Assembly (NCBI GenBank): GCA_903837495.1 | Contig: CAILUT010000005.1 | Span: forward strand, 43,782-107,781 | DNA length: 64,000 bases | Reading direction: 5' to 3' | DNA from: an uncultured Flavobacteriales bacterium | Lineage (GTDB): Bacteria; Bacteroidota; Bacteroidia; CAIKAF01 | Shown: positions 4,237 through 63,563 of the stretch, piece after piece | Layout of the letters: every line of letters starts with the position of its first letter | How positions within the stretch are numbered: position 1 is the first letter of the stretch | The notes under the pieces: model-generated | Told to the model about the DNA's origin: nothing | The model's input: only the letters and a program-made list of their open reading frames with translations | The model's database searches: none | Translations under genes and position numbers: made by a program

Positions 4237-4300
4237 TAGAGACGCAATATTTTGCGTCTCCGCAATATTTTGCGTCTGCGCAATATATCGCGTCTCCGCC
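4236..4300. repeat. REP hairpin cluster 1 (1 full + 2 degenerate copies of GAGACGCAATATTTTGCGTCTC)
   Basis: Palindromic stem GTAGAGACGC/GCGTCTCTAC seen directly. Overlaps the stop codon of the upstream gene. Confidence 0.7.
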
Positions 4301-4329: not shown

Positions 4330-4473
4330 GGGGCGGCAGCCGGGCTTTCCGGGCTACTCCGCGGTCCAAAGCGGGCCGGTGCAAGCCCGGCAGTAGCTCC
4401 TCGCGTCGCTCTGCCGTGCCAACACCGGCAGCCGCTTTGGCCCTTGCGGGGTAGCCGCGTCAATCCCTGCCGC
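4330..4473 (-). repeat. GC-rich nested-hairpin intergenic element, copy A (inverted orientation)
   Basis: Ends GGGGCGGCAG...TCAATCCCTGCCGC. Internal reverse complement of the conserved core. About 70% GC against roughly 50% background. Confidence 0.65.
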
Positions 4474-4682
4474 GGGCGGCCTGGGTGAAAAACCAACAAT
4501 ATAGAATAGAGCCGCATGGGAACATCAAACACAATGTGTTGATTGCCAATTAATTAGACCTGCCAGCCTTGACAAAACAGGGAGATTGGCTTATTTTTGT
4601 TGGTTCAAAGAATCTAGGGAATACCGCAGCGCAATTGGGAGTTCCGCATCTCTGGATATTTTTCAAAATTAAAACGTCAAGA

Positions 4683-5402
4683 ATGGAAAAATTCAAGAAC
4701 AAATACCGCATTGCCTCGACCCGCGCCACATACTGGGATTATGGCTGGAATGCCGCCTATTTTATTACCATCATTACCCAAAATTGGTCTTGCTGGTTTG
4801 GCAAGGTGAAAAACAAAAAGATGGAATTATCAGACCTAGGCGCGTATGCAAATTCGTGCTGGTTGGAAATACCGAACCACTTCCCCTTTGTAGAATTGGG
4901 TGCTCATGTAATTATGCCAAACCACGTTCACGGCATTTTGATTATTAACAAACCGGTCGTAGAGACGCAATATTTTGCGTCTCCCGCCGGTAAATCAAAC
5001 CATAGCGACAACGTCGTAGAGACGCAAAATATTGCGTCTCCCGACGACAAATCAGATCGTAGCGACAACGTCGTAGAGACGCAATATTTTGCGTCTCCCA
5101 ACGGGAAATCAGACCGTAGCGACAACGTCGTAGAGACGCAAAATATTGCGTCTCTACAAACGCCACAAAACAAATTCGGGCCACAATCCCAAAATTTGGC
5201 GGCCATCGTTCGTGGATATAAAATAGGCGTAACAAAAAACGCCCGGTTGATTCACCCGAAATTCAAATGGCAACCCCGGTTCCATGACCACATTATACGT
5301 GATGAAAGGGCATTTAATGCCATTTCAAATTACATTTTAAAAACCCCGCCAAATGGAATTCCAATCGGTAGAGACGCACTATTTTGCGTCTCCCGCCGGT
5401 AA
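4683..5402 (+). CDS. REP-associated tyrosine transposase (RAYT; IS200/IS605-like HuH Y1 transposase) carrying an in-frame 68-aa REP-array insertion
   Basis: N-terminal YRIASTRATYWDYGWNAAYFITIIT, HuH motif VIMPNHVHGIL, then C-terminal WQPRFHDHIIRDERAFNAISNYILKTP (catalytic Tyr motif). Between the HuH and Tyr motifs sit four REP units translated as VVETQYFASP.../VVETQNIASP... Confidence 0.7.
   Translation: MEKFKNKYRIASTRATYWDYGWNAAYFITIITQNWSCWFGKVKNKKMELSDLGAYANSCWLEIPNHFPFVELGAHVIMPNHVHGILIINKPVVETQYFASPAGKSNHSDNVVETQNIASPDDKSDRSDNVVETQYFASPNGKSDRSDNVVETQNIASLQTPQNKFGPQSQNLAAIVRGYKIGVTKNARLIHPKFKWQPRFHDHIIRDERAFNAISNYILKTPPNGIPIGRDALFCVSRR
4956..5157. repeat. REP array (4 hairpins, alternating loop orientation, 53-60 bp period) inside the RAYT ORF
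   Basis: GTCGTAGAGACGCAATATTTTGCGTCTCC and GTAGAGACGCAAAATATTGCGTCTCTAC alternate. Inter-hairpin segments are near-identical (..AAATCAGACCGTAGCGACAACGTC). Confidence 0.8.
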
Positions 5403-5614
5403 TTCAAACCGCAGCGACAACGTCGTAGAGACGCACTATTTTGCGTCTCCCAACGAGAATTCAAACCGTAGCGACACCGTAGGGACGCACTATTTTGCGT
5501 CTCCCGCCGGGAATTAAAACCGTAGCGACACCGTAGAGACGCACTATTTTGCGTCTCCCAACGAGAATTCAAACCGTAGCGACACCATAGAGACGCAAAA
5601 TATTGCGTCTCTAC
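5368..5614. repeat. REP array (5 hairpins, period about 54 bp) at the 3' end of and downstream of RAYT
   Basis: GTAGAGACGCACTATTTTGCGTCTCC repeated four times, then GTAGAGACGCAAAATATTGCGTCTCTAC. Spacers are all about AATTCAAACCGTAGCGACACCGTA. Confidence 0.8.
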
Positions 5615-6541: not shown

Positions 6542-7258
6542 ATGAAAGACAGGAAAAAACCCGAAGTGGATCTCCGTAAATATGGGACTCTCATGTTTGC
6601 TCTAGCCCTTACCCTATCGGTTTCGGCGGTATTGATGGCCACCGAATTTCGGTACTTTGAAGAGCGGCTTTTGGAAATTTTTATTGCAGAAGAAGAGTTT
6701 TTGGTGCAGGAACAGGTAATCAATTACATACCACCACCGCCCTCGGCCGCTCCTAAGCCTCCCCCTCCCTCGGTTGTAGAACAGATTCGAATTGTTGAAA
6801 ACGAGGTTGAACTAGAGCAAGAAGTTGAAATCGACGTTGAAATTGACCTAGAAACTGAAGTGTCGGATCAGCAGGGAGAATTTGGTCAGCAAGAAGAAGC
6901 GGTTCAAGACGATCAGATATTTCAGATTGTGGAAGACATGCCCCGCTTTGCCGGTTGCGAAAAGGCCAAAGACATAGATGCCTGCTTTCAAGAGAAATTG
7001 TATGCGTTTTTGGGTAAAAACCTAAAGTATCCGCCCACAGCAAAAGACATGGGAATTACCGGAAAGGTGTATGTTGGTTTTGTGGTTGAAAAAGACGGCA
7101 GCGTTGGCCAGGTTACTGTGTTGCGCGACATTGGTGGTGGTTGCGGGAATGAAGCCAAGCGGGTAATTTCAAATTTACCAAATTTTACCCCCGGGAAGCA
7201 ACGTGGACGGCCTGTGCGGGTGCAGTACCAACTGCCCATTAATTTCCAACTTCGCTAA
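6542..7258 (+). CDS. tonB: energy transducer TonB
   Basis: N-terminal TM, Pro-rich PPPPSAAPKPPPPS spacer, and C-terminal TonB_C domain (MPRFAGCE...GKVYVGFVVEKDGSV...VQYQLPINFQL). Confidence 0.8.
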   Translation: MKDRKKPEVDLRKYGTLMFALALTLSVSAVLMATEFRYFEERLLEIFIAEEEFLVQEQVINYIPPPPSAAPKPPPPSVVEQIRIVENEVELEQEVEIDVEIDLETEVSDQQGEFGQQEEAVQDDQIFQIVEDMPRFAGCEKAKDIDACFQEKLYAFLGKNLKYPPTAKDMGITGKVYVGFVVEKDGSVGQVTVLRDIGGGCGNEAKRVISNLPNFTPGKQRGRPVRVQYQLPINFQLR

Positions 7259-7385
7259 AACGAGGGGTTGCGGAAATGGGGCCAAGCGCGTAATTTCAAA
7301 TATACCAAATTTTACCCCCGGGAAGCAACGTGGACGGCCTGTGCGGGTGCAGTACCAACTGCCCATTGACTTCCAACTTTGCTAA
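7138..7385 (+). repeat. tandem direct duplication (2 x about 120 bp, about 93% identity, 8-bp spacer) of the tonB 3' end
   Basis: 7138-7257 and 7266-7385 align base-for-base (GGTTGCGG[G/A]AATG...CCAACTT[C/T]GCTAA). The second copy encodes the orphan GCGNGAKRVISNIPNFTPGKQRGRPVRVQYQLPIDFQLC. Confidence 0.75.
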
Positions 7386-7659
7386 TACCAATTGCGCTTG
7401 CTTAAACCGAGAGGGCGGTGCACGGGGAACATAAAACCTGGTTGGATTTCGCCCTGAGCTTATTTTGGGCTATTGCTTGCTTTGCCTGGAAGCAGTAGCA
7501 TGAACGCTTGGGGACAGAATGTGCAAGAAACCAAATTAAAACAACAGCGTGGTCTAAAGTGAATATGCCGGTTTATTCTGGCCGTAAAAATCACAGGATA
7601 AGAATGCGTTTTTTTTAGAAAAATTCAGTGCTTTTTGGGACGCCAACTTAAGGTATCTG

Positions 7660-7887
7660 GTGGAGGCGAAATCTATGGGTATTGCAAGCAAAGCAAGGGA
7701 GAAAATGGTCGTAAACAAAGAGAGACCTGTAGAATACATAGAGGTGGTTTCAGATATTGGTGGTGTTTGTGGGGCAGAGGCCCAGCGGGTGAATGGGCTT
7801 ATGCCTCGGTATAATATAGGCAAACAAGAAGGAAAACAAATTCGTGTGCAGTGCGAATTTCCAACATCATTTCAATTCAGACCGTAG
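7660..7887 (+). pseudogene. orphan, diverged TonB C-terminal domain fragment
   Basis: 75-aa ORF ...VVSDIGGVCGAEAQRVNGLMPRYNIGKQEGKQIRVQCEFPTSFQF parallels the TonB_C end of the 6542 gene. It has no N-terminal TM or Pro-rich region. Confidence 0.45.
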
Positions 7888-7960
7888 TTTTACTTTAAGG
7901 TGTAGGAGTGGGATTGCTAGGGCTTTAGTGAAATGAGGGCGCAGAACGATTGAGTGGCCT

Positions 7961-8103
7961 GCGGCAGGGATTGAAGAGGGTTGCCCGCAAGGTTGGCAGG
8001 GCCTGGCCCGCGTGGCGCGGAGGCGACTTTAGGAGCCCCCGCAAGCCCGCTGGGACAGCCCCTGGCAACCGCGGACTACCCCTGAAAGCCCAGCTGCCGC
8101 CCT
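7961..8103 (+). repeat. GC-rich nested-hairpin intergenic element, copy B
   Basis: GCGGCAGGGATTGAAGAGGGTTGCCCGCAAGG...GCGCGGAGGCGACTTTAGGAGCCCCCGCAAGCCCGCTGGG...GAAAGCCCAGCTGCCGCCC. Internal stem GGTTGGCAGGG/CCCTGGCAACC. Confidence 0.7.
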
Positions 8104-8146
8104 AAAGAAAATATGTATCGAAAGCTGTGAGAAGAGGCGCGGCCTG

Positions 8147-8803
8147 TTACTTTTTCAGCAATTCCGGGAAAAGCTTGTAGAATTTTTCCACCTTTGGCTG
8201 CACCACCATTTGACAATAGCCCTGATTGGGATTCCGCTGAAAATAATTCAGGTGTTCATCTTCGGCACGGTAAAACGCCTCAAAGGCCTTTAATTCGGTA
8301 ACAATGGGCGTATTGTAGATGCGGGCTTCGGTCATGGCGTTTAGAACTTCACGGGCCAGGGATTCCTGCTGGGAAGAGCGGTACAGAATAATGCTTCGGT
8401 ACTGGGTACCGATGTCGGCGCCTTGCCGGTTTAAGGTAGTAGGGTCATGGGTTTTAAAGAACACACCCAACAGCGTTTTCAAAGAAACCTGAGCGGGGTC
8501 GAAGACCACCTGAATGACCTCGGCATGGCCGGTGGCTCCGGAGCAGACCTGTTTGTAAGAGGGATTGGGATTTTGGCCTCCGCTGTAGCCGGGTTCCACC
8601 TTAAATACCCCTTGAATGGCAGAATAAATGGCTTCGGTGCACCAAAAGCAGCCTCCACCAAGGGTTATGGTATCGGTGATTTCAGTCCTGGGCGTAGAAT
8701 CGGAATTCATTTGATTGGCTTTTGCAGGTGAGCAAGAGGTGAAACAGAAGAAAAGGGCGGCTGAGCACAGCCCTAAAGTTGAAGAAAGAGGTAAATTAAT
8801 CAC
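8147..8803 (-). CDS. msrA: peptide-methionine (S)-S-oxide reductase MsrA (lipoprotein)
   Basis: GCFWCTEAIY active-site motif, MsrA core, N-terminal lipoprotein signal. GTG start at 8803. Confidence 0.9.
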   Translation of the reverse strand: MINLPLSSTLGLCSAALFFCFTSCSPAKANQMNSDSTPRTEITDTITLGGGCFWCTEAIYSAIQGVFKVEPGYSGGQNPNPSYKQVCSGATGHAEVIQVVFDPAQVSLKTLLGVFFKTHDPTTLNRQGADIGTQYRSIILYRSSQQESLAREVLNAMTEARIYNTPIVTELKAFEAFYRAEDEHLNYFQRNPNQGYCQMVVQPKVEKFYKLFPELLKK

Positions 8804-45967: not shown

Positions 45968-46118
45968 GGCGCCCCGGCCCCCGGATTGCAGCGGCAGGGG
46001 GCGGGTGCTGCGGGCAGGGCAGGGCCGCCGGGCGGAGGCGACTTTAGGAGCCCACGCACCGGCCAGCCCTGCCGCCCGCAGCACACGCACACTACAGCGG
46101 AAAGCCGGATAGGGCCCC
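45968..46118 (+). repeat. GC-rich nested-hairpin intergenic element, copy C (most diverged)
   Basis: Core GCGGAGGCGACTTTAGGAGCCCACGC. Long stem GGGTGCTGCGGGCAGGGCAGGGCC / GGCCAGCCCTGCCGCCCGCAGCAC. Sits in a divergent-promoter region. Confidence 0.55.
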
Positions 46119-50492: not shown

Positions 50493-50634
50493 GGGCGGCT
50501 GCGGGCTTTCACCGGTAGTCCTCGGTTGCCGGTGGCTGGCCCAGCGGGTTTGCGGGGGCTCCTAACGTCGCCTCCGCACCACGCGGGCCAGGCACCGCCA
50601 CCCTGTGGGCTACCTGGTTCAATCCCTGCCGCAG
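50493..50634 (-). repeat. GC-rich nested-hairpin intergenic element, copy D (inverted orientation)
   Basis: GGGCGGCTGCGGGCTTTC...GGCTCCTAACGTCGCCTCCGC...GGTTCAATCCCTGCCGC. Confidence 0.7.
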
Positions 50635-51745: not shown

Positions 51746-52621
51746 ATGAAAGCTGCGGTTTGGGCTCTGCTCGTGGTTAATTTATTGTACGGCATCAACT
51801 ATGGAGTGGCCAAGTCGATCATGCCCGAACCCCTGCATCCTACCGGAATCATTTTTATGCGCTCGGCCGGAGCCCTTCTCCTATTTTGGATTGTTGCCCT
51901 AAGCCGCCCCATGGAACGCATTCAAAAAGGCGATTGGCTCCGGCTGCTTCTATGTGCTCTGTTTGGTGTTATGCTGAACCAAACCTTGTTTTTTGAAGGG
52001 CTTAACCGAAGCAATCCCATTGAATCTGCCTTGGTAATGACCGTCAGCCCTGTGTTGGTGTTTTTGTTTTCAGCGCATGCCGGATTGGAGAAGATGCAAA
52101 AAACAACTTGGGCAGGAATTCTGCTGAGCGGTGGCGGGGCTGCGGCCCTAATCCTTCATCGGCAAGAAGGCCTGGTATTTTCGCAAAGCAGTGGATTTGG
52201 GAATTTATTGATTTTCATCAACGCCGCCTCATTCGCCCTTTTTTTGGTTTTAGTTAAACCCTTAATGCAAAAATACAGTCCCATAACGGTTATGGCTTGG
52301 GTATTCACCTTTGGCATGCCCATGACAGCGGTGTTGGGCATTCCCGATTTGGCGGCAACCCCGTTGTTGGAACTTCCTGCAGGGGTTTGGTGGGCCGTTG
52401 CCTATGTGGTTATAGGCGTTACTTTTATAGCCTACCTACTGAATGTTTTTGCATTAAAACGGGTAAATGCAAGTTTGGTAAGCGCATTTATTTATTTGCA
52501 GCCGGTTGTGGCGGGCATGTTGCAAGCGTTTGGCGGGAAACTTGACTTTTCTTGGACCTTGGCTTGGTCCTGCGCAGCGGTATGTATAGGCCTATTTTTG
52601 GTAGGTAGAGCATCCAAATAA
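51746..52621 (+). CDS. DMT superfamily (EamA-like) transporter
   Basis: 10 TM helices, two EamA half-domains. 291 aa. Confidence 0.8.
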   Translation: MKAAVWALLVVNLLYGINYGVAKSIMPEPLHPTGIIFMRSAGALLLFWIVALSRPMERIQKGDWLRLLLCALFGVMLNQTLFFEGLNRSNPIESALVMTVSPVLVFLFSAHAGLEKMQKTTWAGILLSGGGAAALILHRQEGLVFSQSSGFGNLLIFINAASFALFLVLVKPLMQKYSPITVMAWVFTFGMPMTAVLGIPDLAATPLLELPAGVWWAVAYVVIGVTFIAYLLNVFALKRVNASLVSAFIYLQPVVAGMLQAFGGKLDFSWTLAWSCAAVCIGLFLVGRASK

Positions 52622-52698
52622 CCGCAGCAGCACTTCCGTTTTAAATAGGCCTATTTTTGGTAGGTAGAGCATCCAAATAACCGCAGCAGCACTTCCTT
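52594..52698 (+). repeat. tandem direct duplication (2 x about 52 bp) of the EamA gene 3' end including its stop codon
   Basis: AGGCCTATTTTTGGTAGGTAGAGCATCCAAATAACCGCAGCAGCACTTCC appears twice in tandem. Confidence 0.75.
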
Positions 52699-52736
52699 TT
52701 TAAAATGGGACTGCATCAAAACAACGGTGCGGTGAG

Positions 52737-52879
52737 CGGCAGGGATTGAGCAGGGTTGCCCGCAAGGGTGCTGACAGGGGGCCCGCGCGGCGCGGAGGCG
52801 ACAGCAGGAGCCCCCGCAAGCCCGCTGGGCCCGCTGTCAGCAACCGCGGACTACCAGCGAAAGCCCGCCTGCCGCCCCC
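52737..52879 (+). repeat. GC-rich nested-hairpin intergenic element, copy E
   Basis: GCGGCAGGGATTGAGCAGGGTTGCCCGCAAGG...GCGCGGAGGCGACAGCAGGAGCCCCCGCAAGCCCGCTGGG...GAAAGCCCGCCTGCCGCCCCC. Stem CTGACAG/CTGTCAG. Confidence 0.7.
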
Positions 52880-56973: not shown

Positions 56974-57005
56974 TTCCCTTTTTTTTCTTTCTCTTTTGGG
57001 GGGCG

Positions 57006-57134
57006 GTTGCGGGCTTTCACAGGTTGTCCGCGGTTGCCGGGCATTGCCCCAGCGGGCTTGCGGGGGCTCCTAAAGTCGCCTCCGCGCCACGCGGGGCAAG
57101 CCCCGCCACCCTTGCGGGCAACCCGGTTCAATCC
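57006..57134 (-). repeat. GC-rich nested-hairpin intergenic element, copy F (inverted orientation)
   Basis: GGGGGGCGGTTGCGGGCTTTC...GGCTCCTAAAGTCGCCTCCGC...GGTTCAATCCCTACCGC. Confidence 0.7.
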
Positions 57135-57189
57135 CTACCGCAGGCCACCCAACCCCTTTCTACTCAAAATTTAAAAAATAGGCCTTTTG

Positions 57190-57652: not shown

Positions 57653-58051
57653 TCAGCCCCTTGAAAAGGCCCCCAAAATTTGCTGCAGCAATCGAGCGTC
57701 ATTCCCACACCAGTTAAGCAGCCTCCAAAATTCCGGAGCCACCCAAACCACCGAATCATGGTCGCTGCTGTGGCTGGGCCAATCCAATGCACAGCTCGCC
57801 TCTAAAGCAATCAACCTTAGGTTTGCTGCTCCCGCTTGCTCCACACTCCCCAAAACCCGCCCAACCTTCAATTCCATCCCCAACTCTTCCTGGAACTCTC
57901 GAACAAGCGCTTGCCCCGCCGTTTCACCCTGACCTACTTTCCCCCCCGGCAATTCCCACAGCCCCGCATTTGTCTTCCCCGCCTTTTTCCTTGCCGCCAA
58001 AAACAAGCCTTGCCTCCATACCAATCCGCAAACCACCTGTAGCTGACTCAT
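57653..58051 (-). CDS. NUDIX hydrolase (MutT/8-oxo-dGTP diphosphatase-like)
   Basis: Nudix box GLWELPGGKVGQGETAGQALVREFQEELG. Start MSQLQVV overlaps the upstream gene by ATGA. Confidence 0.75.
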   Translation of the reverse strand: MSQLQVVCGLVWRQGLFLAARKKAGKTNAGLWELPGGKVGQGETAGQALVREFQEELGMELKVGRVLGSVEQAGAANLRLIALEASCALDWPSHSSDHDSVVWVAPEFWRLLNWCGNDARLLQQILGAFSRG

Positions 58052-60333
58052 GGTATTTCCTGCCAATGGTTGTTCCACATGCGGTACGCTCCAAATACAC
58101 CCCCCACATCTATATCCAAGGGCCTTAACATAAACCGATTCACTCCAAATGCCTTGGATTGAAAGTCGTAGGCGGTTAATGCGATTCGGTACCGCATGTT
58201 TGGCCGGGCAACAAAGGTAAGCGAGCAACGTGCCCAGCCTCCATCCAAACATCGGCTTCGAGCAGGATTTGCCTGGGCTATCCATTGTCCTTGGCCCTGC
58301 TCATTCACTTCCTCAACAAACAAAACCCCATTCACTGAATTGCTTTGGCGGGCATCTACCCACAGGCTTGCTTCGTAGGCCTCTGGATTCAAACCAAGGC
58401 TGTCCAGCAAAACATGGTATTCACTTCTAGGAATCTGTTTTGCTTTATTTCCGTACGGCGGAGCCTCCCCGTAGCTTTGGTCGGCAAGCCGATTAAAATG
58501 CTTCGCTTTATTTCCGTACGGTGCCGCCCCCGGGTAGCTTTGGTCGGCAAGCAGGTTGAAATGCACGGAATCGCGCTCCGCCGCCTCTGCCAAAGGAAGA
58601 ACCCGCATCCAATCTTCAGCTCGAATAAGCCCTAAACGGTAGGTGGAATCTACCGCCAAGACCTTAAACGGCTTTCGATGCGACCACCGGGCTTGGTTCC
58701 AATCCAAATCCTTTGGATAAAGCAGAGCCAAGATCTTGCCCTTCAATGCCCGCTGAAAATGGGGGCTCGGGGTGTACCAAGGCTCGCTCGAAAAGCCACC
58801 AGTAGCTAAGGCCTGTTCTTCGTTTGGTCGAATTAATATCCCGCCTACGGTTGGCACATTCCCAAGTACACTTAGAACATAGGCCAAGCGCCGCAGCTCA
58901 ACCGGGTTTTCGCCGGCGGTCATCAAACTCCCTTCAAACAAAAAGGGTTCGGTCAGCAAGGCCGCCGGTTTTTCGGACCTCAAAAGCGCCAAACCGGCTT
59001 TAAATTCTTCCGATTGATGGGATTCGGAATACAGGTTGGGGGTTTTTAGGTGGATGTCGGTTAAAAACCGAATGTGGCCATGGGCTTCGATCCCTGCCGG
59101 CATCAAGACCAATGCCAACAAAAAACTGCGCCGAAGGGGGGCGGTGTTTTTAAGGGCAGAGTAGAAAGCCAGCCCAACCGAAAATCCAAGGACTCCGTAC
59201 ATAGGCCAAGCAAAACGCATCACAAACCGAAACTGCTTTAAGTAGGGCACCACTTCAAACAACCACGAAAACCGACTCAAACCAAACAAACCACTTGCAA
59301 AAAGCAACAAACCCAATCCCGCAAAAACAGCCGACCTTGGAAGGGCCTTAAACAGGGATTTACCATAGCCCAAAACGAAAACCCAGAGCAGGGTCCACCA
59401 TACCGACCAAGGAATAAAAGCAAACTCCCAAGCCTGGGAACTGCCTGCATCGCCAATCCACACGTTCAGCCATTCATTTACATGGCCTACCCCCGGCAGC
59501 AACCACTGGGCCAAGCTCATTTGATTGTCGGTAGCGCCCCAAGGCTCTTGGGTTCGGAAATTAGAGGCCAAATCGCTCCATTTTAAAAACACCACAAAAA
59601 GCAACAAGGGCAAGGCCAGCAGAAAGGCCCGAAACCAGGTTTGAAATTTAAAGGGCTTGGCCAACAAAACCCACAACAGAGCAAAGGAACCGTTTACTAA
59701 TCCTAAATACGGATGAATTAACACCGATAAAGCGACCCAAAAAGAGGCACTAAAAATAGGTCGAAGCGTATTGGATTGCTCGGTCGATTTTAGCAATGCC
59801 AAACATAAATACGGAAAAAGAGCGGTGTAGGCCAGTGAAAAGTTGCCGTTGTTTTTTAGCCACTGGGGGGCCAACAACGAAAGAGCTAAGGCCAAAATGC
59901 CGGCAGCCATTGCAGGCATGCCTTTGTAGCGGCCCAACCGATACCAACCCAAATGGGTAAACAGCAACTGAGCCAAAACAAGGCCATTAAACACCCCCAC
60001 CATGTAGGGCCGAAGGCTGGGAAAAAGAGAAAAGAACCCCGCAGAAAACCAACACAACAACGGATTGGCATCTAAGTAAAACAAATGCTCAGCAAAGGGG
60101 AAAAACCAAGAATCCAACCAACATCCTGAGGCATGCCCCAAAGCAAACTCGGCATACACCCGATACGCCCGATCCGCATCGCTCCAATACGAAAAAAGGA
60201 CCTGATTTAGGTGAATGGGCAGGGGCCAGTACAGCAGCAGCACCGCCACAATGGGCAAGACCCAAGCCCAAAAAAGGGTTTTTGAAGCCTCAAGCCTCAA
60301 TACAACAGGTGTTTTTTGGAGCTGTTCTTCCAC
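58048..60333 (-). CDS. YfhO-like large polytopic membrane protein (putative glycosyl/lipid transferase) with C-terminal extracytoplasmic domain
   Basis: More than 12 TM helices in the N-terminal about 450 aa, soluble C-terminal about 300 aa. Contains an internal about 60-bp tandem repeat (58430-58555) encoding (A)PYGNKAK. Confidence 0.5.
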   Translation of the reverse strand: MEEQLQKTPVVLRLEASKTLFWAWVLPIVAVLLLYWPLPIHLNQVLFSYWSDADRAYRVYAEFALGHASGCWLDSWFFPFAEHLFYLDANPLLCWFSAGFFSLFPSLRPYMVGVFNGLVLAQLLFTHLGWYRLGRYKGMPAMAAGILALALSLLAPQWLKNNGNFSLAYTALFPYLCLALLKSTEQSNTLRPIFSASFWVALSVLIHPYLGLVNGSFALLWVLLAKPFKFQTWFRAFLLALPLLLFVVFLKWSDLASNFRTQEPWGATDNQMSLAQWLLPGVGHVNEWLNVWIGDAGSSQAWEFAFIPWSVWWTLLWVFVLGYGKSLFKALPRSAVFAGLGLLLFASGLFGLSRFSWLFEVVPYLKQFRFVMRFAWPMYGVLGFSVGLAFYSALKNTAPLRRSFLLALVLMPAGIEAHGHIRFLTDIHLKTPNLYSESHQSEEFKAGLALLRSEKPAALLTEPFLFEGSLMTAGENPVELRRLAYVLSVLGNVPTVGGILIRPNEEQALATGGFSSEPWYTPSPHFQRALKGKILALLYPKDLDWNQARWSHRKPFKVLAVDSTYRLGLIRAEDWMRVLPLAEAAERDSVHFNLLADQSYPGAAPYGNKAKHFNRLADQSYGEAPPYGNKAKQIPRSEYHVLLDSLGLNPEAYEASLWVDARQSNSVNGVLFVEEVNEQGQGQWIAQANPARSRCLDGGWARCSLTFVARPNMRYRIALTAYDFQSKAFGVNRFMLRPLDIDVGGVFGAYRMWNNHWQEIP

Positions 60334-63249: not shown

Positions 63250-63388
63250 GTAGAGCCGCAAAATGTTGCGGCTGATTTGCGGTGGAGACGGAAAATGTTG
63301 CGTCTGATTTGCGGTGGAGACGCAAAATATTGCGTCTCTACTGTTCCTTGATCATCAAAGGTGGAGACGCAAAATATTGCGTCTCTAC
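63250..63388. repeat. REP hairpin cluster 3 (4 copies, 31-47 bp period; first copy carries a compensated stem variant GAGCCGC/GCGGCTC)
   Basis: GTAGAGCCGCAAAATGTTGCGGCTG; GGTGGAGACGGAAAATGTTGCGTCTG; GGTGGAGACGCAAAATATTGCGTCTCTAC twice. Confidence 0.75.
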
Positions 63389-63420
63389 AGGCGATAAACG
63401 GCCACGATGCGCGGCAGGGA

Positions 63421-63544
63421 TTGACGCAACTACCCCGCAAAGGTGCCGACGGCTGGCCCGCTAGGTGCGGAGGCGACGTGAGGAGCCCCCGCAAACCAGC
63501 TGGGCCAGCCTTTCGGCACCTGCGGAGTAGTGCGGAAAGCCCGG
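63421..63544 (+). repeat. GC-rich nested-hairpin intergenic element, copy G
   Basis: GCGGCAGGGATTGACGCAACTACCCCGCAAAGG...GTGCGGAGGCGACGTGAGGAGCCCCCGCAAACCAGCTGGG...GAAAGCCCGGCTGCCGCCCCCC. Stem GGTGCCGACGGCTGGCCC/GGGCCAGCCTTTCGGCACC. Confidence 0.7.
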
Positions 63545-63563
63545 CTGCCGCCCCCCAAAAAAA

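What the first reader, a model, noticed from the sequence alone, without database searches (positions are those of the whole stretch)
7138..7887. Tandem 120-bp duplication of the tonB 3' end plus a third, diverged TonB_C fragment, all directly upstream of a GC-rich element
Positions 7138-7257 and 7266-7385 are about 93% identical direct repeats. The second copy recreates an orphan TonB_C tail with its own stop. About 275 bp further on, a 75-aa ORF (7660-7887) again encodes a TonB C-terminal domain, but at much lower identity. This is similar at protein level only. The whole stretch ends at GC-rich element copy B (7961). Repeated regeneration of a gene's 3' end next to the element resembles insertion or excision footprints, or recombination between tonB paralogs.
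Basis: seen in the sequence. Interest (0 to 1): 0.5.

Follow-up and report, generated by a model that had tools for sequence, protein, structure and literature searches.

The report
Variable tandem repeat at tonB's end
The last ~120 bases of the tonB gene, stop codon included, are repeated head-to-tail one to five times in different strains of an uncultured freshwater bacterium, next to a dead TonB-like gene; it looks like ordinary duplication and unequal-recombination debris, not the footprint of a mobile element.

Summary
tonB (6542-7258) ends in a 127-bp unit (7139-7265) that is repeated at 7266-7392 (93% identity). A third TonB_C-like stretch (7588-7887, 45% aa identity) lies upstream of a GC-rich element (7961-8102). 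Contigs from more than 20 independent metagenome assemblies of the same ~95-100% identical clade carry the arrangement, so it is not an artefact of one assembly. Unit number varies: 1, 2 (most contigs), 4 or 5. One 4-unit array is a 5-unit array minus one unit, from a crossover between the in-gene unit and the next unit, which changed TonB residue N234 to D. Sister lineages (dS of 1.3 or more) have a single tonB end and no third copy. Some of them carry the same GC-rich element in the opposite orientation. The third copy is a pseudogene: it has shared in-frame stops, dN/dS is about 1 within the clade, and its nearest relative anywhere is the adjacent tonB. The repeat is not a DGR, not an integration-site duplication and not a structured RNA. 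Best reading: a lineage-specific minisatellite that persists because each unit carries the stop codon, leaving TonB intact. A causal role for the GC-rich element is not supported, although a second gene end (EamA, 52586-52703) shows the same pattern. Interest is low to moderate.

The parts
6542..7258 (+). tonB, intact 238-aa gene (N-terminal anchor, Pro/Glu-rich linker, TonB_C domain)
   Evidence: ORF. Pfam TonB_C 2.8e-18 over aa 160-237. NCBIfam tonB_Cterm. The identical protein is found on 10 metagenome contigs. dN/dS is about 0.1 against clade relatives.
7139..7265 (+). Repeat unit 1 (127 bp): last 39 codons of tonB, the TAA stop (7256-7258) and 7 nt after it
7266..7392 (+). Repeat unit 2 (127 bp): untranslated orphan copy of the tonB tail with its own TAA (7383-7385), shifted +1 relative to the tonB reading frame
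   Evidence: 93% identical to unit 1. The amino-acid changes E->G, L->I, N->D and R->C fit drift. The number of such units is 1-5 in related contigs.
7555..7887 (+). Copy 3: TonB_C pseudogene. The open stretch is 7588-7887.
   Evidence: tblastn to tonB aa 141-238, 45% identity. In-frame stops at 7555 and 7585, with more upstream at 7432, 7501 and 7537. Pfam TonB_C scores 23.5 bits, below the 24.6 cutoff. dN/dS is about 1 within the clade. The best-identity relative among 1.84 billion representatives is the adjacent tonB cluster.
7628..7690 (+). 63-nt segment inside copy 3. It is single-copy here but is itself a tandem repeat in other strains (x3 in L017; x2 inferred from P0143).
7393..7554 (+). 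Lineage-specific spacer between the array and the recognisable part of copy 3. It has no counterpart in sister lineages and no terminator.
7961..8102 (+). GC-rich ~142-nt rod-like structured element (context only; not shown to be causal)
   Evidence: 49 predicted pairs, 29 with compensatory changes in 88 distinct copies. No Rfam family.
8147..8803 (-). msrA, the convergent neighbour. It marks the conserved right edge of the intergenic region.
   Evidence: Pfam PMSR 2.6e-62. Synteny with L012, L013 and L022.
52586..52703 (+). Second instance of the same pattern: a 59-bp x2 tandem duplication of the EamA gene's last 11 codons, its stop and 23 nt, lying 32 nt upstream of another GC-rich element copy (52736-52877)
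   Evidence: TRF. Sequence. EamA Pfam 1.8e-33. In the population there is 1 unit in L032, and an independent junction with at least 3 units in L038.

Best explanation
This is a lineage-specific, copy-number-variable tandem repeat (a minisatellite) whose 127-bp unit begins inside tonB and includes its stop codon. It lies next to an older, now dead TonB_C paralog. How it works is partly shown and partly inferred. (1) Inferred: a short tandem duplication arose in the ancestor of this clade, by replication slippage or template switching at a junction with at most 2-3 nt of microhomology. It covered the last 39 codons of tonB, the TAA stop and 7 nt after it. (2) Shown from the sequence: every unit carries the stop, and 127 is not a multiple of 3. 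The first unit therefore still ends a full-length TonB, and the downstream units are untranslated. Inferred: the duplication is therefore selectively neutral and can persist. This is a survivorship effect, because duplications that overlap a gene are tolerated mainly when they span the gene's end. (3) Shown: the array expands and contracts (1, 2, 4 or 5 units in related strains). A crossover between the in-gene unit and the next unit removed one unit and wrote that unit's N234D change into the expressed TonB. (4) Shown: downstream units accumulate non-conservative changes, and the unit has no RNA structure of its own. (5) Copy 3 is a pseudogene. It evolves neutrally today, but it probably spent part of its history as a coding gene. 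No function is proposed for the array itself.
For: Repeat anatomy. The same arrangement occurs on 10 contigs from different samples and two assemblers, and in a 95-97% identical sub-clade. Copy number is 1 in L021; 2 in the window, L001-L008, L010, L017 and L020; 4 in L016; and 5 in L025, with L026 independently showing at least 4. Each unit has private SNPs. L016 units 2-4 equal L025 units 3-5. L016 unit 1 equals L025 unit 1 up to offset 96 and L025 unit 2 from offset 103. The corresponding TonB proteins differ as predicted: P0137 ends ...PINFQLR and P0140 ends ...PIDFQLR. Sister lineages have one tonB end followed by a hairpin-plus-T-run terminator (L012, L013, L022-24) or by unrelated DNA (L011). 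Their tonB dS against the window is 1.3-2.2, versus about 0.1 inside the clade. Units 1 and 2 share derived states relative to L011. The unit RNA fold has z = +1.05, and no terminator-like site follows tonB. For copy 3, dN/dS is about 1 within the clade while tonB is about 0.1. Most of its stops are shared across the clade, and its closest relative by identity is the adjacent tonB (46%; all others are 39% or less). A second gene end (EamA) behaves the same way, with 1, 2 or at least 3 units and two different junctions. A third tandem duplication in the window is in-frame inside a gene. Both fit the idea that only tolerated duplications are seen.
Against: All copy numbers come from short-read metagenome assemblies. 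Three contigs break or have a scaffold gap inside the array (L009, L018, L019), so the exact counts need long reads. The single-unit L021 could be a collapse or a rare recombinant, because its crossover would have to fall in a 15-nt window. The junction is too diverged to show the microhomology that the slippage model expects. Units that are 7-10% diverged yet still vary in number suggest an array maintained for a long time, and pure neutrality does not predict that. Two gene-end duplications in 64 kb, both on the 5' side of a GC-rich element, with recurrent independent events at the EamA end, hint at a local hotspot that this explanation treats as coincidence. The origin of copy 3 is unresolved. 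Its 98 stop-free, indel-free codons have P of about 0.02-0.05 under neutral-from-birth decay, and no intact relative exists in the databases.
Confidence: 0.72

Rival explanations
1. The GC-rich hairpin element makes a local hotspot. The very stable ~142-nt rod (about -75 to -83 kcal/mol) stalls replication or is processed in a way that provokes template switching, so DNA on its 5' side, which is often a gene's 3' end, is repeatedly duplicated in tandem. Copy 3, the 127-bp units and the 63-nt repeat would be successive products.
For: Both gene-end duplications in the window lie on the 5' side of a + oriented element: tonB array, then copy 3, then 73 nt, then the element; and the EamA array, then 32 nt, then the element. 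The EamA end was duplicated at least twice independently, with different junctions. In L075 a 68-bp tandem duplication spans the 5' boundary of an element. Three different tandem repeats occur in the one tonB-msrA spacer.
Against: Sister lineages have the element between tonB and msrA with a single tonB end. In 651 kb of related contigs plus the 64-kb window, with 109 element copies in all, only the EamA locus and L075 have a simple tandem duplication within 100 nt. The apparent enrichment disappears once only intergenic DNA is counted as permissive. The 127-bp array is 576 nt from the element. The other three full copies in the window have no adjacent gene-end duplication.
Confidence: 0.13
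2. Selected cassette reservoir: the promoterless downstream units (and copy 3) serve as donors that recombine into tonB to vary the C-terminal strand that contacts TonB boxes, for example under pressure from phages or bacteriocins that parasitise TonB. This would be analogous to pilE/pilS-type silent cassettes.
For: One exchange from a downstream unit into the expressed gene is documented (N234D). A G/C polymorphism at unit offset 24 is shared between in-gene and downstream units of different strains.
Against: Units differ from the gene at only 4-5 codons. The changes look like drift (E->G, R->C at conserved positions) and are not concentrated in a variable patch. All other sampled TonB proteins keep the same C-terminus. 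TonB is periplasmic. Direct repeats give deletion or expansion rather than non-destructive conversion. Copy 3 shows no tract shared with tonB.
Confidence: 0.05
3. Integration-site duplication: an integrative element that targets the tonB 3' end carried a replacement 3' end, as e14 does for icd. The repeats would be leftover attL/attR after the element's loss or decay, and copy 3 would be cargo or an older displaced end.
For: The general pattern of a regenerated 3' end plus a displaced pseudo-copy is what e14 produces at icd: a 163-bp pseudo icd' (PMC6379469). The ~560 bp between unit 2 and the GC element is absent from sister lineages.
Against: The two units are only 7 nt apart (stop codon to next unit) with nothing between them, and there can be up to five in a row. 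Integration does not produce that. No integrase, recombinase or reverse transcriptase is called within about 4 kb on either side. Unit 2 shares this lineage's own derived bases rather than a foreign allele.
Confidence: 0.03
4. Diversity-generating retroelement: one unit is the template repeat and the other is the variable repeat at the 3' end of a target gene.
For: Superficially similar geometry: a ~120-nt repeat pair at about 93% identity, with one member at the 3' end of a gene and a GC-rich structured element downstream.
Against: The mismatches are not adenine-specific. Only 2 of 8 coding mismatches fall at A if unit 2 is the template, and 3 of 8 if unit 1 is (read directly). There is no reverse transcriptase gene nearby. 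The repeats are in tandem and number up to five. The target is a TonB_C domain, not a C-type lectin or Ig fold.
Confidence: 0.01
5. Assembly artefact: the repeat is an expansion or mis-join produced by the assembler.
For: Some contigs end or have N gaps inside the array (L009, L018, L019). L009's apparent third unit is the path a de Bruijn loop through the 65-nt identical core would give.
Against: The two-unit structure with the same unit-specific SNPs recurs in 10 or more assemblies from different samples, made with two assemblers. L016 and L025 contain 4 and 5 mutually distinct units. The L016 hybrid junction lies in a 6-nt window that is too short for a k-mer collapse.
Confidence: 0.03

Closest known systems
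Bacterial VNTR / minisatellite loci (for example mycobacterial MIRU loci; from my own knowledge: Supply et al. 1997)
   Same: Head-to-tail units tens to about 100 bp long, lying in or at the edge of intergenic DNA in an operon context. Copy number differs among closely related strains. Expansion and contraction occur by slippage or unequal recombination. No associated enzyme genes.
   Different: The unit here is not a dispersed family. It is a copy of the gene's own 3' end including the stop codon, it is found at this locus only, and the units are 7-10% diverged from one another.
Microhomology-mediated tandem duplication (MTD), described genome-wide in S. pombe (PMC8639346)
   Same: Short tandem duplications that arise frequently, are reversible, and are seen mainly where they are tolerated. 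Recurrent events occur at the same site (EamA end).
   Different: The microhomology at the 127-bp junction cannot be demonstrated because it has diverged too far. Here the duplications are fixed or old enough to have diverged, and they have expanded to 5 units.
3'-end regeneration by integrative elements (e14 prophage in icd, with a 163-bp pseudo icd'; PMC6379469)
   Same: An intact gene is followed by an orphan copy of its own 3' end.
   Different: In e14 the two copies flank a roughly 15-kb element that has an integrase. Here the copies abut (7 nt between stop and next unit), number 1-5, and no integrase or element lies between or beside them.
Diversity-generating retroelements (TR/VR pairs)
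   Same: A ~120-nt imperfect direct repeat with one copy at the 3' end of a gene.
   Different: No reverse transcriptase, mismatches not confined to template adenines, tandem rather than separated copies, and a different target fold.
Silent-cassette gene conversion systems (Neisseria pilE/pilS, Borrelia vlsE; from my own knowledge)
   Same: An expressed gene plus promoterless partial copies nearby. One documented transfer of cassette sequence into the expressed copy.
   Different: The cassettes are nearly identical to the gene. The only documented exchange is a destructive one-unit deletion, there is no hypervariable region, and the protein is periplasmic.

Membership tests
VNTR / minisatellite | Head-to-tail direct copies of one unit | tested here: met
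   Period 127, with units abutting without a spacer. Up to 5.0 copies by TRF in L025.
VNTR / minisatellite | Copy number differs among closely related genomes | tested here: met
   1, 2, 4 or 5 units in contigs that are 95-100% identical in flanking DNA. Caveat: these are short-read assemblies.
VNTR / minisatellite | Change by unequal recombination or slippage between units | tested here: met
   L016 equals L025 minus one unit, with a hybrid first unit (crossover between offsets 97 and 102).
Microhomology-mediated tandem duplication | Short identical sequence at both breakpoints of the original duplication | tested here: inconclusive
   The junction ...ACGAG(G/T)|GGTTGCGG compared with the left flank ...GGTGGT|GGTTGCGG shares at most 2-3 nt, and post-duplication divergence obscures it. 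The EamA L038 junction shares 'CT'.
Integrative-element att duplication (e14/icd type) | Integrase or recombinase gene adjacent, with element DNA between the two copies | tested here: not met
   The neighbours are gcvH, vanZ-like, tonB, msrA and secDF, with no integrase among called genes within about 4 kb on either side. There are 7 nt between the stop and the next unit.
Diversity-generating retroelement | Mismatches between the repeats correspond to adenines in the template repeat | tested here: not met
   2 of 8 or 3 of 8 coding mismatches fall at A, depending on which unit is taken as template (read).
Diversity-generating retroelement | Reverse transcriptase gene in the locus | tested here: not met
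   No RT family among the Pfam annotations of called genes in L001, L016 and L025.
Silent-cassette antigenic/variation system | Cassettes carry diverse variable segments that replace the expressed segment non-destructively | tested here: not met
   Units differ from the gene at 4-5 codons in a drift-like pattern. The only documented exchange is a one-unit deletion.
Functional TonB_C-domain protein (for copy 3) | Uninterrupted ORF with a start codon and export signal, under purifying selection, scoring above the Pfam gathering threshold | tested here: not met
   In-frame stops upstream of 7588. dN/dS is about 1. Pfam scores of 22.8-23.5 bits are below the 24.6 cutoff. The core strand GKVYVGFVV is replaced by SKAREKMVV.
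Structured RNA (for the 127-bp unit) | Folding energy lower than shuffled controls, or an Rfam match | tested here: not met
   z = +1.05, with 176 of 200 shuffles folding at least as well. No credible Rfam hit.

The most novel reading that the evidence does not exclude
The GC-rich ~142-nt rod-like element is a multicopy, strongly covarying structured RNA/DNA family with no Rfam match. In this reading it makes the DNA on its 5' side a hotspot for recurrent short tandem duplications, so the gene ends next to it (tonB, EamA) are repeatedly 'regenerated'. The downstream copies can then recombine back into the gene, as seen for TonB N234D. That would link a new class of structured repeat to local structural mutagenesis of neighbouring gene termini.
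Probability: 0.12. Interest if true: 0.6.

Novelty: new member of a known kind. Interest (0 to 1): 0.27.

Why it matters
For annotation: the orphan tail and the 60-112-aa 'TonB' ORFs that gene callers report downstream of tonB (some named 'periplasmic protein TonB' by JGI) are not genes. For metagenome assembly: this locus breaks contigs and produces scaffold gaps. The locus is a clear natural example of why tandem duplications that overlap genes are seen mostly at gene ends: the stop codon is duplicated with the unit, so the protein is unharmed. It also shows that such relics can feed changes back into the live gene by unequal crossover. The array could serve as a strain marker (1-5 units) for this freshwater Bacteroidota population. 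The more interesting object is the neighbouring GC-rich structured element family, which deserves its own study.

Tried and rejected
The following were tried and led nowhere or were rejected.

- DGR TR/VR pair: rejected on the mismatch spectrum and the absence of an RT.
- att-site duplication by an integrative element: rejected because the copies abut and no integrase is present.
- Structured RNA or terminator in the unit or the post-tonB region: folds are no better than shuffles (z = +1.05 and +2.27), there is no credible terminator, and no Rfam family matches.
- Search for an intact donor or ortholog of copy 3: the word-indexed search found only the same-locus ORFs. The exhaustive HMMER search found nothing closer than the adjacent tonB. 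tblastn against sister loci matched only their tonB.
- Homology of 7393-7587 to the tonB N-terminus or to 7888-8100 (the whole-gene or larger tandem-duplication model): no hit.
- Dating copy 3. The codon-position identities (0.61/0.64/0.36) first looked like proof of a long coding history. However, a copy that has been neutral since birth, compared with a constrained tonB, predicts a similar asymmetry. Only the stop-free 98 codons argue against it (P about 0.02-0.05), so the origin is left open.
- Association of tandem duplications with GC-rich elements across 80 metagenome loci: suggestive if measured against the whole sequence, but not once only intergenic DNA is counted.
- Literature searches for tonB-end duplications: nothing specific. 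One search failed on syntax.
Full report

Yes. tonB is an intact 238-aa ORF at 6542-7258, with a Pfam TonB_C domain at E = 2.8e-18. The repeat finder reports a 123-nt direct repeat at 7139-7261 and 7266-7388, 93% identical, with start-to-start spacing 127. TRF reports period 127, 1.9 copies and score 438.

Written as 127-nt units (7139-7265 and 7266-7392), the two differ at offsets 9, 14, 15, 24 and 37, and again at 103, 105, 116, 122 and 125-127. The central 65 nt are identical. Each unit holds the last 39 codons of tonB, the TAA stop and 7 further bases. Because 127 = 3 x 42 + 1, unit 2 is out of frame with tonB and lies behind its stop codon.

tblastn aligns tonB aa 141-238 to 7588-7881 without gaps, at 45% identity and E = 3.6e-21. 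The same frame upstream carries stops at 7432, 7501, 7537, 7555 and 7585.

The GC-rich element is at 7961-8102. Four more full copies lie in the window, plus a diverged full-length copy at 4331-4473 and a fragment at 46013-46058.

**2. Not an artefact of one assembly, and not a fixed structure**

The exact TonB protein is encoded on 10 metagenome contigs from different samples and two assemblers (L001-L010). Every contig that reaches the region carries units 1 and 2 with the same unit-specific bases.

Looking up variant proteins from the same 90% cluster gave a sub-clade that is 95-97% identical in DNA. In it the array has these unit counts:

- L021: 1 unit.
- L017 and L020: 2 units.
- L016: 4 units.
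- L025: 5 units. L026, an independent assembly, shows at least 4.

Each unit has private substitutions, so these are distinct sequences and not a collapsed loop.

L016 units 2-4 are identical in pattern to L025 units 3-5. L016 unit 1 equals L025 unit 1 up to offset 96 and L025 unit 2 from offset 103. One unit was therefore lost by a crossover between the in-gene unit and its neighbour. L025 unit 2 has private bases that no L016 unit has, so the direction was deletion. The identical window at the crossover is only 6 nt, too short for a k-mer mis-join. The predicted consequence is seen in the proteins: P0137 ends ...PINFQLR and P0140 ends ...PIDFQLR.

Caveats: L009 and L019 end inside the array, and L018 has an N gap inside it. 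L009's apparent hybrid third unit is what a de Bruijn loop through the 65-nt identical core would produce. Exact counts need long reads.

**3. Where it came from**

- L012 and L013 (about 77% nt identity in tonB), and the widespread P0128-type contigs L022-24, have tonB, then a hairpin-plus-T-run terminator, then about 90 nt, then the GC-rich element in reverse orientation, then msrA. The spacer is only about 280 nt, with one tonB end and no third copy.
- L011 (85% nt identity) has one tonB end followed by unrelated DNA.
- Window 7386-7960 has no counterpart in any of them.

tonB dS is 1.3 (L011), 2.0 (L013) and 2.2 (L012), against about 0.10 inside the clade. tonB dN/dS is about 0.1. Units 1 and 2 share this lineage's derived bases: each is about 80% identical to L011, versus 93% to each other. 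Unit 2 is therefore a copy of this lineage's own gene end, not of a paralog or a foreign allele. The array arose after the split from L011-like lineages and before the clade radiated.

**4. The third copy**

Within the clade, 7588-7884 has dN of 0.02-0.07 against dS of 0-0.085, a ratio of about 1, while tonB in the same genome pairs has a ratio of about 0.1. Most upstream stops are shared. The stop at 7585 is CAA in L018, L020 and L021. Pfam scores of 22.8-23.5 bits fall below the 24.6 cutoff, and the core strand GKVYVGFVV has become SKAREKMVV. Copy 3 is a pseudogene now.

An exhaustive HMMER search of 1.84 billion representatives found no intact relative. The best single-domain identity is to the adjacent tonB cluster (46%). 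All other hits are 39% or less, and the higher bit scores come from multi-domain proteins. The word-indexed search found only the same-locus ORFs of 60-112 aa.

Against tonB, nucleotide identity by codon position is 0.61/0.64/0.36, dN is 0.51 and dS is saturated. This asymmetry alone does not prove a coding past, because a copy that is neutral from birth, compared with a constrained gene, also shows it. However, 98 codons without a stop have P of about 0.02-0.05 under simulated neutral decay at the required divergence, and there is no indel. I conclude that copy 3 was probably a functional small TonB_C gene for part of its history. It most likely derived from tonB, but its origin is not settled.

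Copy 3 contains its own 63-nt repeat (7628-7690): single-copy here, three copies in L017, and two in the sequence behind P0143.

**5. Mechanisms considered**

- DGR: mismatches are not adenine-specific (2 of 8 or 3 of 8), and there is no RT among called neighbours.
- Integration-site duplication of the e14/icd type (PMC6379469): the copies abut, there can be up to five of them, and there is no integrase.
- Structured RNA or terminator: the unit folds no better than shuffles (z = +1.05), and there is no terminator-like site after tonB and no Rfam family.
- What remains is an ordinary tandem duplication. The closest described process is microhomology-mediated tandem duplication (PMC8639346). It was followed by expansion and contraction through unequal recombination, which is directly documented here.

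The reason a gene's 3' end is what gets 'regenerated' is most simply survivorship. A duplication overlapping a gene is harmless if it carries the stop codon with it. The window supports this. Besides REP-like arrays, TRF finds three tandem duplications of 59 bp or more in 64 kb. Two span a gene's stop codon (tonB; EamA 52586-52703) and one is in-frame inside ORF 58048-60333.

**6. Is the GC-rich element involved?**

The EamA case made me take this seriously. A 59-bp duplication of the last 11 codons, the stop and 23 nt lies 32 nt upstream of element copy 52736-52877. In the population there is one unit in L032, and in L038 a different junction (period 60) with at least 3 units. The duplication is therefore recurrent and independent.

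I scanned the metagenome collection with a conserved element motif. The 80 loci I analysed (651 kb), together with the window, hold 109 element copies. Only the EamA ortholog (L074) and L075 have a simple tandem duplication within 100 nt of an element. In L075 a 68-bp duplication spans an element's 5' boundary.

Measured against all sequence this is an excess. Measured against intergenic DNA alone, the only place such duplications can survive, it is not. Sister lineages carry the element next to a single tonB end. I therefore rate a causal role at about 0.1-0.15. It is not excluded.

**7. The element itself (outside the finding)**

Eighty-eight distinct copies align over about 142 nt. RNAalifold predicts a long rod of 49 pairs, 29 of which have compensatory changes. 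Examples are AU:35/CG:32/GC:10 at one pair and GC:44/UA:41 at another. The unpaired motifs GGGATTGA, GGAGGCGAC, AGGAGCC and GAAAGCCCG are invariant or nearly invariant. No Rfam family matches at gathering or at E <= 10. The element occurs in both orientations relative to its neighbours and is flipped between this clade and its sisters.

**8. Verdict**

It is wrong about mobile-element footprints and about a paralog donor for unit 2.

This is a new example of a known kind of thing (a minisatellite plus a pseudogene). Two features are mildly interesting: stop-codon-inclusive units, and a documented write-back into the expressed gene. Interest is 0.27.

Noticed in passing
window 7961-8102 (+), 50493-50632 (-), 52736-52877 (+), 57001-57141 (-), 63411-63553 (+); diverged copy 4331-4473 (-); fragment 46013-46058; also L040-L119: A ~142-nt GC-rich element family. 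It forms a rod-like consensus structure of 49 pairs, 29 with compensatory changes across 88 distinct copies, with invariant or nearly invariant unpaired motifs (GGGATTGA, GGAGGCGAC, AGGAGCC, GAAAGCCCG). About one copy occurs per 10 kb in the window. No Rfam family matches at gathering or at E <= 10. It is conserved between lineages whose intergenic DNA is otherwise unalignable.
   Followed up: partly
window 52586-52703 (EamA gene 51746-52621); L030-L039, L074: A 59-bp x2 tandem duplication (98% identity) of the EamA gene's last 11 codons, its stop and 23 nt, lying 32 nt upstream of a GC-rich element. L032 has one unit. L038 has an independent junction (period 60) with at least 3 units and a scaffold gap.
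   Followed up: yes
window 58442-58564, inside ORF 58048-60333 (-): A 63-bp x2 in-frame tandem duplication (85% identity) that gives a repeated 21-aa segment (HFN.LADQSY...PYGNKAK) in a 761-aa membrane protein. It is also present in L118.
   Followed up: no
window 7628-7690; L017 623-811: A 63-nt segment inside the TonB_C pseudogene is itself copy-number variable: x1 here, x3 in L017 (protein P0148), and x2 in the sequence behind P0143.
   Followed up: partly
window 4243-4299, 4956-5154, 5368-5611, 63253-63337; ORF 4569-5402 (+): Arrays of a REP-like palindrome (GAGACGCAAAATATTGCGTCTC; periods 18, 32, 54 and 57). They lie beside and inside an ORF that, with the repeat-derived middle removed, matches NCBIfam REP-associated tyrosine transposase at 8e-13 (below cutoff; Pfam finds nothing). 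The ORF's reading frame runs through a REP array.
   Followed up: partly
L013 6826-6978, L012 4037-4184, L022 3333-3474 versus window 7961-8102: The GC-rich element between tonB and msrA is in the opposite orientation in sister lineages, and its flanks are unrelated. This means either independent insertion or a local inversion. In L011 the element sits upstream of gcvH instead.
   Followed up: partly
L008 2951-4668 (corresponds to window ~8030): In one contig, homology to the window stops in the middle of the GC-rich element, and a 511-aa DDE_Tnp_1 transposase gene follows. This is either an IS insertion into the element or an assembly join at a dispersed repeat.
   Followed up: no
L075 13721-13858: A 68-bp x2 tandem duplication that spans flanking DNA plus the first ~30 nt of a GC-rich element (GCGG[CA]AGGGATTGAC...).
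   Followed up: partly
L048, L052, L056, L065, L076, L078, L082, L086, L087, L110, L111 (for example L078 12392-13128, L087 7403-8103): Long arrays of period 70 or 86-88 that contain the motif CCATTCGTGCATTCGTGGCTA recur in many of the related freshwater contigs. Their nature was not examined.
   Followed up: no
window 7259-8146: The hairpin-plus-T-run terminator that follows tonB in sister lineages (for example L013 ~6740-6785) is absent here. No terminator-like site lies between the tonB stop and the GC-rich element.
   Followed up: partly
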